IMG/VR virus record: IMGVR_UViG_3300021364_000005
From: a virus
Lineage: Duplodnaviria > Caudoviricetes
Reading direction: 5' to 3' (one strand)
DNA: 64,000 nt
In this document: in pieces, positions 24,737-64,000 of the stretch
Position numbering within the stretch: the first letter of the stretch is position 1
Layout: each line of letters begins with the position of its first letter
The notes under the pieces: generated by a model
The model's database searches: none
The model's input: only the letters and a program-made list of their open reading frames with translations
Told to the model about the DNA's origin: nothing
Translations under genes and position numbers: made by a program

Positions 24737-24866
24737 ATCAGCTCCTCAAATACGGCGATCCTGTCGCTCCAACCACTTTTTCATCCGCTTGGTTACGGCT
24801 CTTTGCGGGTTGACCACAGTTTGACCCTGCAACTAGACCAAGTTTGTTGCATTAATAGTATTTATC
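24737..24866 (-). promoter_or_regulatory. Late promoter (GATAAATA, 24859-24866) plus a structured 5' leader of about 115 nt with a predicted H-type pseudoknot
   Basis: Hairpins UGCAAC/GUUGCA, CCGU-AACCAA-GCGG (loop complementary to UGGUU at 24771-24775) and GCGA-cagga-UCGC just before the SD. Confidence 0.6.
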
Positions 24867-26766: not shown

Positions 26767-27153
26767 TTATTGTGAGTCTACGTTTGCACCTGCATCGTCT
26801 GCACCAGGATGCTCGCCTGCTGACCAACTTACTTTTGCAACATCAGCTGTTCCGCCTTCGTATTGGATCTTACGATTGTAAAATCTTGTAACTTGAACTG
26901 TTGATGAATCGTCAAGTGTTGCGTGTACTGTAAAATCACCTGCTACTAATGAAGCATTTGCTTTATTAACAAGGGTTAATACTTCTGATGTTGTACCATC
27001 TGTTACAGTAAATTTGTTTGCTGATCTTTGGTTTACAATCCAAGCTGGTGTTGTTGCACCTGCTACTTCACTGCCACCTGTAAAAAAGTAACGTGTGACT
27101 AGGATTTTGCCTGCGCCTTGACCAAAATGTCTTTTATTTAATGGACGTCCCAT
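26767..27153 (-). CDS. 128-aa late protein, possible head decoration protein
   Basis: Strong SD AAGGAG and its own TAAATA late box. Function is inferred only from position downstream of the capsid gene. Confidence 0.6.
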   Translation of the reverse strand: MGRPLNKRHFGQGAGKILVTRYFFTGGSEVAGATTPAWIVNQRSANKFTVTDGTTSEVLTLVNKANASLVAGDFTVHATLDDSSTVQVTRFYNRKIQYEGGTADVAKVSWSAGEHPGADDAGANVDSQ

Positions 27154-27245
27154 TTGTTTCTCCTTTTTGACGTTCTAAGTCTACGGGGTTGGTTCCCCAT
27201 AAGTCCTCATCAAGAGGTTCTCCTCTGACAATGTATTTATCAAAA

Positions 27246-27488
27246 AAGAAAAAAGCTCGCACAGCGGCGAGCTTTTTAAATAAAAGGTGGGTGAAGGACT
27301 TGGGTATACCTCCAACTGCACGTCTAGATACCTGTCTATGTTACGTACAGAACCTTGCTCCGCTTAGTATTGCGATGTGCGTACTGCTTGTCTCCAAACT
27401 CTACGCCGGGCACTACCCCTAGCAAGTGCGCTTACCTTCTCTAGAAACAAAGTTATTAGCGCCAACCCATATAACAACGTCTTGTTAT
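27246..27488 (-). ncRNA. Candidate stand-alone structured ncRNA (about 240 nt)
   Basis: Sigma70-type promoter upstream (27495-27522). 5' hairpin AUAACAA-gacg-UUGUUAU at the predicted start. Stems GCACU/AGUGC and GCGUA/UACGC, the latter capped by GUUUG-GAGA-CAAGC (GNRA loop). Intrinsic terminator at 27250-27277. No credible ORF. Confidence 0.65.
27250..27277 (-). terminator. Intrinsic terminator (possibly bidirectional)
   Basis: AAAAAGCTCGC-6 nt loop-GCGAGCTTTTT, followed on the minus strand by a further U-run. Confidence 0.85.
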
Positions 27489-27494
27489 GTTATT

Positions 27495-27522
27495 AATATA
27501 ACACAACTAAAATAAAAGTCAA
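27495..27522 (-). promoter_or_regulatory. Sigma70-type (early) promoter for the candidate ncRNA
   Basis: TTGACT-16 nt-TATATT with a TGn extended -10. Confidence 0.6.
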
Positions 27523-27605
27523 CCTTTTTTTAATAAAAAGTTAATCTTTTTTTCACGATGTTGTTTGATTAGTTGCTTGAAGCACCAAAACGTGAATCTA
27601 TCCAT
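27519..27605 (-). CDS. Small basic ORF, 28 aa (MDRFTFWCFKQLIKQHREKKINFLLKKG)
   Basis: My translation; SD GAGGAG at a normal distance from the ATG; lies downstream of a late box and a structured leader. Confidence 0.5.
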   Translation of the reverse strand: MDRFTFWCFKQLIKQHREKKINFLLKKG

Positions 27606-27633
27606 AACACTTCTCCTCGTTAAAGGTTAAAGT

Positions 27634-27676
27634 GCGTTCCTTCGCCTTATGCTACTTCCGTCCCGTAGGATGAACG
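27634..27676 (-). promoter_or_regulatory. Compact three-way-junction-like leader RNA
   Basis: CGUUC-a-UCC(UACG)GGA-cGGAAGUAG-cauaagg-cGAAG-GAACG: closing stem CGUUC/GAACG, a cUACGg tetraloop hairpin and purine-rich junction strands. Confidence 0.55.
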
Positions 27677-27691
27677 TAATAATATTTAGTC

Positions 27692-27719
27692 AAAAAAATA
27701 GGCCCCGTAGGGCCTATTT
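27692..27719 (-). terminator. Intrinsic terminator after the major capsid gene
   Basis: AAATAGGCCC-TACG-GGGCCTATTT followed by a T-run. Confidence 0.9.
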
Positions 27720-27739: not shown

Positions 27740-28906
27740 TTAGCTAAAGCTAACTGCACCGTTAGTAATAGCAACTTTACCTAAGTAATCAGCTGCGTTA
27801 CCAAGCGATGATGCTGTGTTTGATAGCTCGACATATCCGTAACGTGTCATGAAGCTCACGACTGGCTCGAATGTGCCTGGATCAAGTACAACACCTGAAC
27901 TCATTAGCGGGATGTATGGGCAATAGAACGCTGGTGCGTCTGACTCGCTTGATCCTTTGTAACCAATAAGTACAGCTTCGCTGTCTGCTGCATATGAATC
28001 TACATATACACGCATTGCATTGTTTAGTGTACCAACCATTTTTGTGTTAGTTGGTGCTTCAAATGTTCCCTCAGTTGTACGTGCAAACGCTGAAGTTGTT
28101 GCAGACTGTAGGATTGTTAGTGCAAATGGGCTAACAACCGCATAGTTACCTGCGCCTCTACGTGTACGCTGAGCGATCAAGTTTGCAACTCTGTTGACTT
28201 GTACTGCTAGTGCAGCGTGTTCGTCACCAACGAATGTTGCAGTACCTGAAACTGCTGACTGATCATATGTTTCAGATGCTGTTCCAGCTAGTGAACGTAG
28301 TGAAGCAAGAACTTCTTGGTCGATCTCAGCAGTAATTTCCTGCGCAAGAGCTGCCATGATTTCAGCTTCAATATCGATACCATGCTGTGACTGTGCATCC
28401 TGAGCTGCCTCAAAGGTCCAACGTGCTGATAGCTTACGTGTTTTAGCTTCAACAGTTTGCTTTAAGATCTGAATGCTTAGTCTGTTACCAGCTACACCTT
28501 CTAGCGATCCTGTTGTGCTTGGAGCAGCAGAGGAGCTTGGTGCACCTGAATATGATTCAGCGATTTTGAACGGTGATAGAGCCTCTTCACCTGCTGTTGC
28601 GCCGTTGTTTCCATCAGCGTAACGAACACGTAAAGTGTGGATCTGACCAACTGGTCCTGTCATCGGCTGCACACCAACTAGTTCATTTGCAATGACTGTT
28701 GGCATAACACGTCTGATGACTGGTAAAATAACTCTGTTTAGAGTTGCGACATTACCGGCAGAAGTAGCACCAGCTGTAGCAGATTCTGAAAGATACTTGC
28801 GAGTATTTTCTAGTGTTGATTCCATTACAGCTTTCTTGTTGCCTTGTAGGCCTTCGACAAGAGCGGCTTTTGTTTCCTGCCAGCGACTTTCTAGTAGTTC
28901 TGACAT
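27740..28906 (-). CDS. gp23: Major capsid protein, T4 gp23-like (388 aa)
   Basis: LPVIRRVMPTVIANELVGVQPMTGPVGQIHTLRVRY, VEAKTRKLSARWTFEAAQD, EITAEIDQE, FYCPYIPL and FMTRYG are hallmark gp23 motifs. Confidence 0.97.
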   Translation of the reverse strand: MSELLESRWQETKAALVEGLQGNKKAVMESTLENTRKYLSESATAGATSAGNVATLNRVILPVIRRVMPTVIANELVGVQPMTGPVGQIHTLRVRYADGNNGATAGEEALSPFKIAESYSGAPSSSAAPSTTGSLEGVAGNRLSIQILKQTVEAKTRKLSARWTFEAAQDAQSQHGIDIEAEIMAALAQEITAEIDQEVLASLRSLAGTASETYDQSAVSGTATFVGDEHAALAVQVNRVANLIAQRTRRGAGNYAVVSPFALTILQSATTSAFARTTEGTFEAPTNTKMVGTLNNAMRVYVDSYAADSEAVLIGYKGSSESDAPAFYCPYIPLMSSGVVLDPGTFEPVVSFMTRYGYVELSNTASSLGNAADYLGKVAITNGAVSFS

Positions 28907-54850: not shown

Positions 54851-54858
54851 GATAAATA
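54851..54858 (+). promoter_or_regulatory. Late promoter GATAAATA for gp6/gp7
   Basis: TAAATA core 22 nt before ATG 54881, SD AGAGG. Confidence 0.75.
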
Positions 54859-54880
54859 CCATATAGCAAGAGGAACGACA

Positions 54881-61300: not shown

Positions 61301-64000
61301 AAGGGCACGATGGTAGTATTACTATTGCATACAACGACTTTAGAGACGATTTACTTGTTGAACTAGAAATGCGTATATTCAATAATATAAAAGTTGAATA
61401 TGACGAAAGTATTTTTAACATACATGATTACATAGGTGGAGAATACAGAACAACAAAGTTTTCACAGCAACAGATAGATAATCCATTTATTGACGATTTT
61501 ACAGATTGGCTACAGCTTGTAGGTAATCCAGACTATACAGAATACGATTCTTTCTTTAGTCAAGCTAATCCTTTCACATTTAATTATAGTGCAAGTAATT
61601 CCGCAAATAATAATAGCTTACCAGGATTTTGGAGAGGAATATACAAGTGGGCATATGATACTGATCGTCCGCATTCTCATCCTTGGGAGGTTTTAGGTTT
61701 TAGTATAGAACCTAATTGGTGGAAAGAAGTTTACGGCCCTCGTCCGTATACTGTAGACAATGTTCCGTTATGGACAGATTTAGAAAAAGGTATTGTTAGA
61801 GAACCAGGAAAAGCTGTTAGATTTAGAAGTAAATTTGCTAGACCAGGATTAGCAAGTTTTCCTCCTGCAGATAGTAGAGGCGAAATACAAAATCCTTTAA
61901 ATAGTGGATTCCTAAAAAATTACGCCAACAGTCAAATTAAAACTAAATTTAAGTTTGGCGATCAAGCACCAACAGAAGCAGCTTGGAGACGTTCTAGTGA
62001 TTATCCATTTGCTTTATTAAAAAGCATGATTATAAACAGACCTGTACATACGTTTGGTATTGCTTTTGATAGAAGCAGAGTAAAAAGAAATTTTGCTGGA
62101 CAGTTGGTATATGGTGATACTAATAAAAGAATTAAAAAAGAAACTATTGCATTTCCTAATAGTTTAAGCTCAACAGACAGAGTGCAAACAGCAGGATTAG
62201 TAAATTACGTTGCTGCATTAATACAGAACGATGTATCTACTCAATATGACGAATATGTTTCTAATATCCAACGTGTAAATAACAAACTTGGATTACGTGT
62301 TGGCGGCTTTACAAATAAAGAAAAATTTAACTTATTATTAGACAGCAGGTCTCCTTTTAATACCACAAATGTTTTTATTCCACAAGAGAATTATAAAGTC
62401 TTTCTTAACAAATCTACTGCGTTTGACGTAGTTACGTATAGCGGTGTTATAATAGAAAAAGTAGCAAGCGGATTTATTATAAGAGGATATGATAGATTTA
62501 ATCCTGTATTTCCTATATATCAATCTGTTCCTGCAAGTAACGATCCTGTAATGCGTGAAGGTGGTACAAGCGAGAACTTTATAGATTGGGATGAAAACAA
62601 ATTATATTTACAAGGAAACCTTGTAAGATATGAAGGTAGATTTTTTAGAGCTAGAGAAGAACATACATCAAGCGAAAGATTTGATGCAGATTTATTTGTT
62701 GAAGTAAAAGAAGTTCCGGTAGTAGGCGGAGTAAATGTAACTGTGCCGCAAAACTTTAGAGAGCATTTATCATATGTTGATTACGGAACAACATATGCCA
62801 CTGTTCAAGAAGTAATTAACTTCATTGCTGGATATGAACAACACTTAATTAAATCTGGATTTATATTCAACTCTTATAGTCCCGAAAGCGAAACAATACA
62901 AAACTGGCGCATGAGTATGAAAGATTATCTATTCTGGACTACACAAAATTGGCAAGAAAATAGCGTCATTACACTTAGCCCATTAGCAGAAACTGTAAAA
63001 TGGTTTAAAGATGGATATATTGTTGATAATATTTTTAATGAGATTTATGCAACTGCACCATTGAATAGTAATGGCAGACCTATAAATCCAAAAAATTTAA
63101 GTTACAGTAGAGTTGAAAAAGAATTTATTTTACAACCTAAAGATACAAATGAAGGTATCTATCTAGCAAAATTACCTTTAACCCAAAAAGAACATATTGT
63201 TCTACTTGATAACAAAACTATATTCAAGGATGTAATATATAATAAAGAGCAGGGCTATAGACAACAGCGTATTAAAGTTATTGGATATAGATCAAGTGAC
63301 TGGGACGGAAGTATTAACGTACCTGGATTTATAATCGACGATGTAACTATATTAGATTGGAATGAAAATACAGATTATAGTATAGGCGATGTTGTAAAGT
63401 ATAAAAAAGATTATTATGTTGCAAAAGAAAATGTTCCGGGCAATACTACATTAGACTTAAATTATTGGGAAGTATTATCAGGTAAACCTGAAAACGGATT
63501 GTTTCCAAACTTTGATTACAAAATAAATCAATTTGCAGATTTTTATGATTTAGATACAGATAATTTTGATATAGAACAGCAAAAAGTTGCCCAGCATCTT
63601 ATTGGCTATCAAAAACGTGAGTACTTACAAAACATTCTTAAAGACGATGTTAGCCAATACAAGTTCTATCAAGGATATATTCAAGATAAAGGCACAAAAA
63701 ATGCACTAACAAAGTTATTTGATGCACTAAGTTCGTCAGGTGAAGATAGTTTAGAGTTTTATGAAGAATGGGCTGCAAGAGTAGGTTCCTATGGAGCCAC
63801 AGACGGCATTAAAGAACTAGAGTTTATTTTAGACGAATCTAAATTCCAATTAGATCCGCAGCCTATCATTATCACAAACAGAGACGAAGGCAGAGCTTTA
63901 GATCTTGTTTATAGACAGCCTATTACTGATGTATACTTGGCACCCGAAGATTATGATTATAGAAATGTATTTCCTACAAAGAATTTAAAACAATATGTTC
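58318..64000 (+). CDS. Partial very large baseplate wedge/structural protein (gp7-like), over 1890 aa, runs off the right edge
   Basis: Not in the ORF track because there is no stop in the window. My translation from ATG 58318 begins MSENDQKEYPVDGNNVPSSKFLPRYFRTLPNKKFLSATFDQ; LP..F.T and KFVNYREYYW motifs; the frame agrees at the window end. Confidence 0.8.
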   Translation, partial: MSENDQKEYPVDGNNVPSSKFLPRYFRTLPNKKFLSATFDQMVQTGTAEKLNAYYGDTVAPGYNTKDPYVTDDIKIRNDYQFSPGTVIEDDLGNVNFYKDYIDYINQIKNLKGTVDNHNNLNEAEFYSLNPHIDADKFVNYREYYWLAYGPQLVNVAGQGKEVVSTFTVTKKDNVDNFSYVFSPDGITDNPDIQLIRGQTYTFEIDAPDMPMTIRTQRPGTSEFSYTDGVTQTETGFTFKVPENAPEVLFYVNENDINASGVFKIINAEDNSEVDVDLEVIGKKAYKGGNGVELSNGMKIRFTGDVTPAKYAEGEWYVEGVGDKIVLISANDLFIPTTNLQDVDVPFDANNFDRLPFDDASGFPAQKDYIVGNRCSRDTNYWARSNKWFHKSVIEASAAANKQPVVLNEALKAKKPIIEFNPHLRLHNSGTIKKLDVDLVDTITTDVFSTIEGSSGYNIDGIDIVDGMRILFLGDTDVLVKNKIYEVKFIRFINNRQLTLQPTEDTDPLVGETLLCKQGTDNKGYMYWFDGTTWKRSQEKPTVNQSPLFELYDNDGIQISTLESVSQLGTKIFSYKTGNGVNDPELGFPLSYRSLENIGDIEFEFNLLSDVITYQRQNVTESIESDQLLLRKYSDRENFEYVNAWVKGKELSVQPVIREYFAEIDQTNFDIDVYENSANVTDLWIRVYQNNKLLVNTKDYDIVNFDNMATVVLKNKASENDQIIIKTNSANAKTNNGHYELPTSVVNNPNNENITQLTFGEFTDHVRTIVESLEDIGGIFPGQSNLRDAGNVYDRGTKFVQHSGMFNLANFHLIDDNANIIKAIEFAKREYGKFKREFLDVANQLGFDGDIKDHVDAVLERIAKDKNNSMPFYFSDMIGYGKGFETQHKVFDENNRFYPLSQKFNLKELSTRAVCVYHNRVQIAHGQDYTFNDDGFIVLDDRLVVNYNDTIDIVEYSSTDGSYIPPTPSKFGLFPKYVPGKYHDHTFLEAQNVVQGHDGSITIAYNDFRDDLLVELEMRIFNNIKVEYDESIFNIHDYIGGEYRTTKFSQQQIDNPFIDDFTDWLQLVGNPDYTEYDSFFSQANPFTFNYSASNSANNNSLPGFWRGIYKWAYDTDRPHSHPWEVLGFSIEPNWWKEVYGPRPYTVDNVPLWTDLEKGIVREPGKAVRFRSKFARPGLASFPPADSRGEIQNPLNSGFLKNYANSQIKTKFKFGDQAPTEAAWRRSSDYPFALLKSMIINRPVHTFGIAFDRSRVKRNFAGQLVYGDTNKRIKKETIAFPNSLSSTDRVQTAGLVNYVAALIQNDVSTQYDEYVSNIQRVNNKLGLRVGGFTNKEKFNLLLDSRSPFNTTNVFIPQENYKVFLNKSTAFDVVTYSGVIIEKVASGFIIRGYDRFNPVFPIYQSVPASNDPVMREGGTSENFIDWDENKLYLQGNLVRYEGRFFRAREEHTSSERFDADLFVEVKEVPVVGGVNVTVPQNFREHLSYVDYGTTYATVQEVINFIAGYEQHLIKSGFIFNSYSPESETIQNWRMSMKDYLFWTTQNWQENSVITLSPLAETVKWFKDGYIVDNIFNEIYATAPLNSNGRPINPKNLSYSRVEKEFILQPKDTNEGIYLAKLPLTQKEHIVLLDNKTIFKDVIYNKEQGYRQQRIKVIGYRSSDWDGSINVPGFIIDDVTILDWNENTDYSIGDVVKYKKDYYVAKENVPGNTTLDLNYWEVLSGKPENGLFPNFDYKINQFADFYDLDTDNFDIEQQKVAQHLIGYQKREYLQNILKDDVSQYKFYQGYIQDKGTKNALTKLFDALSSSGEDSLEFYEEWAARVGSYGATDGIKELEFILDESKFQLDPQPIIITNRDEGRALDLVYRQPITDVYLAPEDYDYRNVFPTKNLKQYV

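What the first reader, a model, noticed from the sequence alone, without database searches (positions are those of the whole stretch)
27246..27522. Self-contained ~240-nt early ncRNA hidden inside the late structural region
Seen: a sigma70-type promoter, a 5' hairpin exactly at the predicted start, several GC-rich stems including a GNRA-capped one, a 3' element GGAGGUAUACCCAAGUCCUUCACCCACC and its own terminator. The only ORF is MGWR. It is an early-type unit placed between two late units right after the capsid gene. I cannot match it to tRNA, tmRNA, RNase P, SRP or 6S. Inference: an unassigned phage sRNA (sponge, decoy, anti-defence or assembly RNA).
Basis: partly seen in the sequence, partly recalled or inferred. 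Interest (0 to 1): 0.7.

Follow-up and report, generated by a model that had tools for sequence, protein, structure and literature searches.

The report
manA RNA gene behind capsid gene
The flagged stretch is a copy of the known but functionally unexplained "manA" folded RNA, carried by an uncultured marine giant phage as a small self-contained gene with its own promoter and stop signal, not as a switch for the next gene.

Summary
The unit is real and lies on the minus strand. Rfam assigns its core (27283-27487) to the manA RNA family (RF01745: 80.9 bits, cut-off 55.2, full length), so it is not an unassigned RNA.

A near-consensus sigma70 promoter with an extended -10 ends 7 nt before the RNA, and a canonical terminator starts 5 nt after it.

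- **Relatives:** In 24 of 80 related jumbo-phage contigs the same RNA sits on the same strand behind the capsid gene. Of 19 examined, 18 keep the promoter and 18 a terminator hairpin (stem sequences differ). One has tRNA-Gly instead.
- **Cassette:** Relatives without the RNA join the capsid terminator directly to the late promoter and leader of the next gene. It therefore behaves as an insertable RNA gene, not a leader or riboswitch of the 128-aa gene.
- **Cyanophages:** Eight cultured cyanophages show the same promoter-first layout. Three carry manA right behind gp23 and one abuts tRNA-Gly.
- **Loops:** The loop pairs that a 2026 cryo-EM preprint names as kissing contacts of manA decamers and 60-mer cages are complementary here and co-vary.

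Function remains unknown. The scan flagged manA-type stand-alone RNAs before on other DNA.

The parts
27495..27522 (-). sigma70-type promoter with TG-extended -10, ending 7 nt before the RNA
   Evidence: 10 of 12 hexamer matches, 16-nt spacer. The same promoter type is found in 18 of 19 related copies and before all 8 cyanophage manA copies.
27283..27487 (-). manA RNA (Rfam RF01745), 205 nt: nine helices plus a pseudoknot
   Evidence: 80.9 bits against a gathering score of 55.2, model positions 1-192 of 192. Covariation. The clade model R1 scores it 157 bits.
27465..27469 (-). 5' strand of the pseudoknot; pairs with 27288-27292
   Evidence: Rfam alignment. All five pairs are replaced by different complementary letters in the other clade members and in cyanophages.
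27386..27399 (-). GNRA-capped hairpin (loop L6 in my numbering)
   Evidence: a GNRA tetraloop in 20 of 21 full-length clade copies. The stem co-varies (helix 7).
27408..27416 (-). hairpin loop L5, complementary to loop L7 (27364-27371)
   Evidence: 4-5 complementary letters that co-vary across the family. Permutation p = 0.009; control loop pairs give p > 0.2.
27325..27338 (-). apical hairpin of helix 8; its loop L8 is complementary to loop L9 (27303-27307)
   Evidence: 5 Watson-Crick pairs here and different complementary pairs in other members. Permutation p = 0.0008.
   Evidence: Helix 12 is paired in 100% of cells, with 2 of 5 pairs changed on both sides.
27241..27277 (-). intrinsic terminator (11-bp hairpin, then a U-tract), starting 5 nt after the manA model
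   Evidence: A hairpin plus U-tract is found at the same place in 18 of 19 related copies, with differing stem sequences. No co-varying antiterminator was found.
27233..27241 (-). T4-type late-promoter-like box that starts the next unit (context, not part of the RNA gene)
   Evidence: It follows the terminator in 15 of 19 copies. It is present directly after the capsid terminator in relatives that lack manA. It occurs 4 times in the window against 0.85 expected.
27151..27219 (-). freshwater-2-like leader of the 128-aa gene (context)
   Evidence: 45 bits, below the cut-off of 49.9. Homologous leaders in L014 and L018 score 76.6 and 55.2 bits.
27519..27678 (-). upstream neighbour: glutamine riboswitch (27678-27631) plus a 28-aa ORF whose end overlaps the manA -35 (context)
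   Evidence: It is present in only some manA-bearing relatives.
27696..27719 (.). terminator hairpin of the major capsid gene (27740-28906, minus strand); upstream boundary of the variable gap
   Evidence: Conserved in all relatives shown.

Best explanation
The stretch is a gene for a manA-family RNA (Rfam RF01745) in an uncultured marine jumbo phage of the Rak2/GAP32-like group.

Proposed course of events:
- Host sigma70 RNA polymerase starts at about 27488, 7 nt after a near-consensus extended -10 promoter.
- It transcribes the 205-nt manA fold and stops at a constitutive intrinsic terminator at about 27246.
- This gives a discrete, stable RNA of about 240 nt early in infection.

The RNA is not the leader of the next gene, which has its own late promoter and its own freshwater-2-type leader. 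The whole promoter-RNA-terminator unit is an optional cassette, inserted in the plastic gap behind the major capsid gene.

The RNA most likely acts in trans as a homo-oligomer. Two loop pairs (L5-L7 and L8-L9) are complementary, and these are the pairs reported as the intermolecular kissing contacts of manA pentamers, decamers and 60-mer cages.

Status of each step:
- Shown: family membership, structure, cassette boundaries, and conservation of the promoter and terminator.
- Inferred: early timing, the transcript ends, and constitutive termination.
- Inferred from a preprint on other members: oligomer formation.
- Unknown: what the particle does for the phage.
For: - **Membership:** (80.9 bits, full length). 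A model built from 18 clade copies finds all 8 cultured cyanophage manA RNAs at 38-62 bits.
- **Structure:** 41 of 57 pairs change on both sides. The covariation score is 0.432, against 0.169 for shuffles and at most 0.169 for slid partners.
- **Own promoter:** 18 of 19 copies have the -35 hexamer, a 16-17-nt spacer and a TG-extended -10, ending 7-19 nt before the RNA. All 8 cyanophage copies have the same layout.
- **Own 3' end:** 18 of 19 copies have a terminator-like hairpin plus U-tract starting within 11 nt of the RNA's end, and the stem sequences differ between copies. In L047/L095 the RNA is followed after 5 nt by tRNA-Gly and then a terminator. In cyanophage S-SSM7 manA abuts tRNA-Gly.
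- **Separate unit downstream:** a late-promoter box follows the terminator in 15 of 19 copies.
- **Cassette:** relatives without manA join the capsid terminator, the late box, the leader and the gene directly.
- **No expression platform:** duplex energies between terminator arms and the RNA body are alike for matched and swapped pairs (-9.1 vs -8.9 and -10.9 vs -10.05 kcal/mol). The minimum-energy fold keeps the manA fold and the terminator together.
- **Kissing loops:** L5-L7 and L8-L9 complementarity co-varies (p = 0.009 and 0.0008; six control loop pairs give p > 0.2). The preprint names these pairs as intermolecular contacts.
Against: - The transcript ends and early timing rest on sequence signals only.
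- In two of the eight cyanophages (P-SSM2, P-HM2) manA ends 16-44 nt before a start codon with no clear terminator. A leader role therefore cannot be excluded for the family as a whole.
- In this window a late transcript from the glutamine-riboswitch unit would run through manA, so the RNA may also exist as a 3' extension of that mRNA.
- My helix and loop numbering was matched to the preprint without seeing its figures.
- Loop covariation cannot tell contacts within one molecule from contacts between molecules, and the permutation test ignores relatedness.
- This copy is diverged (81 bits against 170-186 for cyanophage copies), and none of the RNAs studied by cryo-EM comes from this clade.
Confidence: 0.72

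Rival explanations
1. Riboswitch or other cis-regulator, as Rfam and Weinberg et al. 2010 classify manA. The promoter-aptamer-terminator arrangement would be a transcription-attenuation leader that gates read-through into the 128-aa structural-module gene.
For: - The order promoter, structured RNA, terminator, gene on one strand is the classical riboswitch layout.
- The family was proposed as a riboswitch candidate lying in 5' UTRs.
- In P-SSM2 and P-HM2 manA ends 16-44 nt before purL and gp32.
- In P-SSM7 the terminator's 5' arm overlaps the 3' end of manA.
Against: - A conserved late-promoter box and a second, independent leader (freshwater-2) lie between the terminator and the gene.
- The same gene has the same late box and leader in relatives that lack manA.
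- The terminator does not overlap the RNA, and no antiterminator pairing co-varies with it.
- What follows differs between copies: tRNA-Gly in two lineages, or another sigma70 promoter in L098 and L099.
- No ligand has been reported since 2010, in the papers held.
Confidence: 0.1
2. A mobile 'regulatory cassette' with little or no function of its own. It would be a PeSL-like terminator/early-promoter module that spreads by recombination in the hyperplastic gap behind the capsid gene. The folded RNA would serve mainly as a stable 3' end or insulator for neighbouring transcripts, for example as the 3' UTR of the riboswitch-controlled 28-aa ORF.
For: - Presence or absence varies among close relatives at one site: 24 of 80 have it.
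- In cyanophages the -35 lies in the loop of the upstream terminator hairpin. This is a composite terminator/early promoter as described for PeSLs.
- In cultured relatives the gap behind the capsid gene also takes other insertions, such as a homing endonuclease in MIJ3.
- The 28-aa ORF has no terminator of its own before manA.
Against: - A mere insulator would not need nine helices, a pseudoknot and co-varying loop-loop contacts conserved from cyanophages to jumbo phages.
- Copies without the riboswitch unit (L006, L017) keep the full RNA.
- The near-consensus promoter points at the RNA itself.
Confidence: 0.12
3. A small protein-coding gene, or a chance arrangement of signals.
For: Frames of 37-46 codons with TTG or GTG starts overlap the region.
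Against: - These frames shift in position, phase and length among 26 relatives.
- Substitutions follow base-pairing, not codons.
- The Rfam E-value is 5e-19.
- The fold z-score is -2.9.
Confidence: 0.01

Closest known systems
manA RNA motif (Rfam RF01745; Weinberg et al. 2010, PMC2864571), best known from T4-like cyanophages such as P-HM1, P-RSM4, S-SSM5 and P-SSM2
   Same: - The full consensus fold is present, including the pseudoknot, the four-letter loop of helix 1, the six-letter loop L5 and the long loop L9.
- A near-consensus sigma70 promoter lies directly in front.
- In P-HM1, P-RSM4 and S-SSM5 manA also lies 61-68 nt behind the major capsid gene gp23.
   Different: - The host phage is a Rak2/GAP32-like jumbo phage. 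Its capsid is about 70% identical to those of Vibrio phage 2.275.O and GAP32; it is not a cyanomyovirus.
- The sequence is diverged: 81 bits against 170-186. Of 18 clade copies found with the Rfam model, 12 fall below Rfam's cut-off.
- The pseudoknot and loop-loop letters are all replaced by other complementary letters.
- It is bounded by a canonical terminator and a separate late promoter, which does not fit Rfam's 'Cis-reg' label.
manA assemblies solved by cryo-EM (Ren et al., bioRxiv 10.64898/2026.07.01.735769): decamers, an octamer and a 60-subunit icosahedral cage
   Same: - Same family.
- The loop pairs named there as intermolecular contacts (L5-L7' in both classes, L8-L9' in the cage former) are complementary in this RNA and co-vary in its clade.
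- L6 is a GNRA loop, as in the class that uses a GNRA-receptor contact.
   Different: - None of the studied RNAs is from this clade.
- Assembly was shown only in vitro, at high RNA concentration after annealing in 10 mM Mg2+.
- The preprint still calls manA a putative cis-regulator and gives no biology.
PeSL composite terminator/early-promoter cassettes of T4-like phages (Arbiol et al. 2010, PMC2839356; Comeau et al. 2014, PMC4122927)
   Same: A terminator hairpin followed by a near-consensus sigma70 promoter flanks an optional insert in a plastic region between core genes. Close relatives differ by a clean indel.
   Different: PeSL cassettes were described around small protein ORFs, whereas here the cargo is a structured RNA. 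Recombination at these sites was not shown here.
Phage-encoded stable RNAs transcribed together with tRNAs (for example T4 species 1 and 2 RNAs in the tRNA cluster; from my own knowledge)
   Same: A short, structured, non-coding RNA made from an early promoter. In two lineages it is directly fused to a tRNA gene, so RNase P would trim its 3' side.
   Different: There is no sequence or fold relationship, and in this window there is no tRNA.

Membership tests
manA RNA (Rfam RF01745) | Covariance-model score at or above the curated gathering score, over the full model | tested here: met
   80.9 bits against 55.2, E = 5e-19, model positions 1-192 of 192.
manA RNA (Rfam RF01745) | Consensus helices supported by compensatory changes among homologues | tested here: met
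   18 clade copies: 41 of 57 pairs have changes on both sides. The covariation score is 0.432 against 0.169 for shuffles, and 0 of 500 shuffles reach it. Slid controls reach at most 0.169. RNAalifold finds 23 of 33 pairs compensated.
manA RNA (Rfam RF01745) | Pseudoknot between the segment after helix 1 and the 3' tail | tested here: met
   Five pairs in the window (27465-27469 with 27288-27292). Most clade members and the cyanophages each use a different five-letter complementary pair. The MAFFT and model alignments misregister this helix for the window row, so the count (helix 2) understates it.
manA RNA (Rfam RF01745) | Reciprocal recognition: a model of this clade finds accepted members | tested here: met
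   Model R1 hits the manA of P-SSM2, P-SSM4, P-HM1, P-HM2, P-SSM7, P-RSM4, S-SSM5 and S-SSM7 at 38-62 bits, at the Rfam coordinates.
manA RNA (Rfam RF01745) | Position in the 5' UTR of a protein gene (Rfam type 'Cis-reg') | tested here: not met
   A terminator, a late-promoter box and a separate leader lie between it and the next gene. That gene keeps the box and leader where manA is absent. This is an annotation of the family, not a structural criterion, so membership stands.
manA RNA (Rfam RF01745) | Homo-oligomer formation through loop-loop contacts (preprint 2026) | not testable with these tools
   Only the prerequisite could be tested. L5-L7 and L8-L9 complementarity is present and co-varies. 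The loop numbering was matched to the text without figures.
Riboswitch (transcription-attenuating) | Expression platform: a terminator that overlaps or competes with part of the aptamer | tested here: not met
   The terminator starts 5-11 nt after the fold. Matched and swapped duplex energies are alike, and the minimum-energy fold holds both structures.
Riboswitch (transcription-attenuating) | A functionally coherent set of downstream genes | tested here: not met
   Downstream elements differ. They are a late-promoter unit of a structural-module gene, tRNA-Gly, or another sigma70 promoter. In cyanophages they are purL, gp32, small ORFs, a carbamoyltransferase or tRNA-Gly.
Riboswitch (transcription-attenuating) | Specific ligand binding | not testable with these tools
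   No ligand is reported in the papers held.
PeSL-type mobile regulatory cassette | A composite terminator hairpin plus early sigma70 promoter at the border of an indel between close relatives | tested here: met
   The capsid terminator is followed by the promoter in L006, L017 and L047, and there is a clean presence/absence difference against L012, L018, L023, L028, L041 and L070. In cyanophages the -35 lies inside the hairpin loop.
PeSL-type mobile regulatory cassette | Recombination between such motifs demonstrated | not tested
   No junction or mini-circle evidence was sought.

The most novel reading that the evidence does not exclude
manA is not a gene switch at all. It would be an abundant early phage RNA that builds closed RNA-only particles (pentamer-based decamers or 60-mer cages) inside the infected cell. 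Its repeated placement directly behind the major capsid gene, in two distant phage lineages (T4-like cyanophages and Rak2-like jumbo phages), would reflect a functional link to head assembly or to host systems that sense capsid proteins, rather than only an insertion hot spot.
Probability: 0.08. Interest if true: 0.85.

Novelty: new member of a known kind. Interest (0 to 1): 0.4.

Why it matters
manA has been an orphan riboswitch candidate since 2010, and a 2026 preprint showed that it builds RNA-only cages in vitro without saying what it does in nature.

This locus and its relatives give a clean genetic picture. The RNA is a free-standing, strongly promoted, terminator- or tRNA-bounded gene. 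It comes and goes as a cassette, and its assembly loops co-evolve.

That picture moves the question from 'what ligand does it sense' to 'what does the particle do early in infection'. It also names cultured phages in which the question can be tested: P-HM1, P-RSM4, S-SSM5 and S-SSM7.

The locus extends the family to jumbo phages, where most copies score below Rfam's threshold and so go unannotated.

Tried and rejected
- **blastn:** The unit gave no match against 50,697 phage records. The family is too diverged for DNA search.
- **Cultured capsid relatives:** Vibrio 2.275.O, Phosso, GAP32 and MIJ3 have only about 100 nt, or a homing endonuclease, behind the capsid gene and no manA.
- **Expression:** No expression evidence of any kind was obtained.
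- **Literature:** A search for cyanophage start-site maps that mention this RNA found nothing useful.
- **Antiterminator:** None was found.
- **Second promoter match:** The match at 62423-62453 lies inside a 1894-aa ORF and was set aside as chance.
- **Coding reading:** Rejected.
- **Rfam first-look census:** It missed copies such as L014. I replaced it with an nhmmer profile and my own covariance model.
- **Weak Rfam hits:** Sub-threshold hits to Trp, Phe and Leu leaders, Atu_C8 and 6A at the terminator are terminator look-alikes.
- **Palindrome:** The eight-letter palindrome spanning helix 9 and loop L9 in the window copy is not kept in relatives. I did not read it as a dimerisation site.

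Full report
**What is there**

All genes around the finding run on the minus strand. The gap between the major capsid gene and a 128-aa ORF is 586 nt long. The capsid gene is 27740-28906 (PHROG 138, E = 3.5e-100) and the ORF is 26767-27153.

An Rfam scan of the whole window returns two families above their gathering scores, and both lie in this gap:
- manA RNA (RF01745) at 27487-27283: 80.9 bits against a cut-off of 55.2, covering the model from end to end.
- A glutamine riboswitch (RF01739) at 27678-27631.

A permissive scan adds a near-threshold freshwater-2 match (RF02980, 45 bits against 49.9) at 27219-27151, running into the start codon of the 128-aa gene.

- The promoter is TTGACT, a 16-nt spacer and TATATT with a TG extension, at 27522-27495.
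- The 5' hairpin is helix 1 of manA.
- The GNRA-capped stem lies at 27399-27386.
- The quoted 3' element is helix 9 plus the 3' strand of the pseudoknot.
- The terminator lies at 27277-27250.

The 243-nt transcript folds with z = -2.9. No reading frame is conserved. The promoter is the only intergenic match to an extended -10 sigma70 pattern in the 64 kb.

**Which phage**

The window is part of an 82-kb IMG/VR contig that CheckV estimates to be 22% complete. Its capsid protein is about 70% identical to those of Vibrio phage 2.275.O, Cronobacter phage GAP32, Pectobacterium phage CBB and Sinorhizobium phage Phosso, which have genomes of 350-470 kb. This is therefore a Rak2/GAP32-like jumbo phage, not a T4-like cyanophage, the group from which manA is best known. 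The cultured relatives have no manA behind the capsid gene.

**Relatives with the RNA**

I fetched 80 IMG/VR loci with capsid proteins 80-94% identical.
- The Rfam model found full-length manA in 18 of these contigs. Of those 18 copies, 12 fall below the gathering score.
- A profile and a covariance model built from the clade raise the count to 24 of 80.
- All 24 lie on the capsid strand, 110-1000 nt after the capsid stop codon. Three are cut by contig ends.
- The clade model also finds the manA of eight cultured cyanophages at the published coordinates, so homology holds in both directions.

The fold is well supported. 41 of 57 pairs change on both sides. The covariation score is 0.432, against 0.169 for shuffles and at most 0.169 for slid partners. 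The pseudoknot uses UGGGU/ACCCA in the window and other five-letter complementary pairs in the rest of the clade and in cyanophages.

**Gene or leader?**

Four observations argue that this is a gene of its own.

1. *Promoter.* 18 of 19 copies carry the same promoter type, ending 7-19 nt before the RNA.
2. *3' end.* 18 of 19 carry a terminator-like hairpin plus U-tract starting within 11 nt of the RNA's end, and the stem sequences differ between copies. In the remaining copy (L047/L095) the RNA is followed after 5 nt by tRNA-Gly(UCC) and only then by a terminator. That arrangement is a two-gene stable-RNA operon.
3. *Separate downstream unit.* A T4-type late-promoter box (GATAAATAC in the window) follows the terminator in 15 of 19 copies. 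It precedes a leader that is a true freshwater-2 RNA in relatives, scoring 76.6 and 55.2 bits.
4. *Cassette.* Relatives that lack manA join the capsid terminator, the late box, the leader and the gene directly.

The RNA, with or without the glutamine-riboswitch/28-aa-ORF unit, is therefore an insertion cassette.

I looked for a hidden expression platform. Duplex energies between terminator arms and the RNA body are the same for matched and swapped pairs. The minimum-energy fold keeps both structures. The riboswitch reading therefore fails two of its defining features at this locus.

**The same layout in cultured cyanophages**

Using coordinates from a published table, I read eight T4-like cyanophages.
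- All eight have a near-consensus sigma70 promoter ending a few nucleotides before manA. In several, the -35 sits in the loop of the preceding terminator hairpin. This is the composite terminator/early-promoter design described as PeSL.
- In P-HM1, P-RSM4 and S-SSM5, manA lies 61-68 nt behind gp23, the same neighbourhood as here.
- In S-SSM7 it abuts tRNA-Gly.
- P-HM1 and P-SSM7 have terminators after it.
- P-SSM2 and P-HM2 do not. There manA ends 16-44 nt before purL and gp32, so a leader role is not excluded everywhere.

Several small 'hypothetical protein' calls in these records overlap the RNA.

**How it may work**

A July 2026 preprint reports cryo-EM structures of manA RNAs as decamers, an octamer and a 60-subunit icosahedral cage. 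The assemblies are built from pentamers held by kissing loops: L5-L7' and L8-L9', or L3-L8' plus an L6 GNRA-receptor contact.

I numbered helices in 5'-to-3' order. With that numbering L6 is a GNRA loop in 20 of 21 full-length clade copies, and the same two loop pairs prove complementary and co-varying.
- **L5-L7:** UAGUG/UACUA in the window and UGGU/ACCA in cyanophages.
- **L8-L9:** GGUAU/AUACC in the window, CUGUA/UACAG in cyanophages, and three further letter pairs elsewhere in the clade.

Permuting partners among sequences gives p = 0.009 for L5-L7 and p = 0.0008 for L8-L9. Six control loop pairs give p > 0.2.

Three caveats apply:
- The numbering was matched without the figures.
- The test ignores relatedness.
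- Covariation cannot separate contacts within one molecule from contacts between molecules.

My reading is that the phage makes a discrete, abundant RNA of about 240 nt early in infection, and that this RNA probably assembles into a closed homo-oligomer. What that particle does is unknown.

**Limits**

'Early' timing and the transcript ends are inferred from sequence signals and from the T4 paradigm.

In this window a late transcript starting before the glutamine riboswitch has no terminator before manA. The RNA may therefore also occur as the 3' part of that message.

**Verdict**

The 'self-contained early unit' reading is supported. The 'unassigned RNA' reading is refuted, because this is a diverged member of the known manA family in a new phage group.

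After my own assignment I looked up earlier notes of this scan. They report manA-type stand-alone RNAs on other DNA: 59 notes in at least 41 genomes. The general idea is therefore not new to the scan.

What this locus adds:
- the clean cassette indel;
- the shared position behind the capsid gene in two distant lineages;
- the tRNA-Gly fusions;
- the loop-loop covariation.

Noticed in passing
window 27519-27690 (minus strand): A glutamine riboswitch (RF01739, 49.2 bits) preceded by a TAAATA-type box and followed by a Shine-Dalgarno site and a 28-aa basic ORF. The stop codon of the ORF overlaps the -35 of the manA promoter. The same unit occurs in L014, L016 and L081, and motif hits occur in L015, L019, L068 and L072. 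Other manA-bearing relatives (L006, L017) lack it.
   Followed up: partly
window 27151-27219 (minus strand); L014:4702-4784; L018:4273-4344: The leader of the conserved 128-aa gene (which starts MGRP) is a freshwater-2 RNA (RF02980). It scores 76.6 and 55.2 bits in relatives and 45 bits here. It follows a late-promoter box in nearly all relatives, with or without manA. The protein has no Pfam or PHROG match.
   Followed up: partly
L047:4286-4573; L111:964-1234 (Synechococcus phage S-SSM7): manA is directly followed by a tRNA-Gly gene in two unrelated phage lineages, with a gap of 5 nt in one and none in the other. This suggests that RNase P defines the 3' side of the RNA there.
   Followed up: partly
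L106 (P-HM1), L109 (P-RSM4), L110 (S-SSM5), L104 (P-SSM2): In cyanophages the -35 hexamer of the manA promoter lies in the loop and 3' arm of the terminator hairpin of the preceding gene (gp23 or regA). This is a compact terminator/promoter composite of the PeSL type. Several annotated small 'hypothetical proteins' (for example PHM1_121, PSSM4_169.1, PHM2_011/012, SSSM7_180) overlap the manA RNA and are probably miscalls.
   Followed up: partly
L098 and L099, about 30-70 nt after the manA terminator: In these two relatives the manA terminator is followed by another near-consensus sigma70 promoter instead of the late box. The downstream neighbour of the cassette therefore differs between relatives.
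   Followed up: no
window 24858-24866, 42423-42431 (minus strand), 54851-54859 (plus strand): Further copies of the nine-letter late-promoter box (4 in the window against 0.85 expected). The one at 24858 lies before the long leader of the 1125-aa gene with a PKD domain.
   Followed up: no
contigs of L035, L051 and L073 (176-210 kb each): Three large related contigs hold no manA at all by the Rfam search. The RNA is therefore dispensable within this phage group.
   Followed up: no
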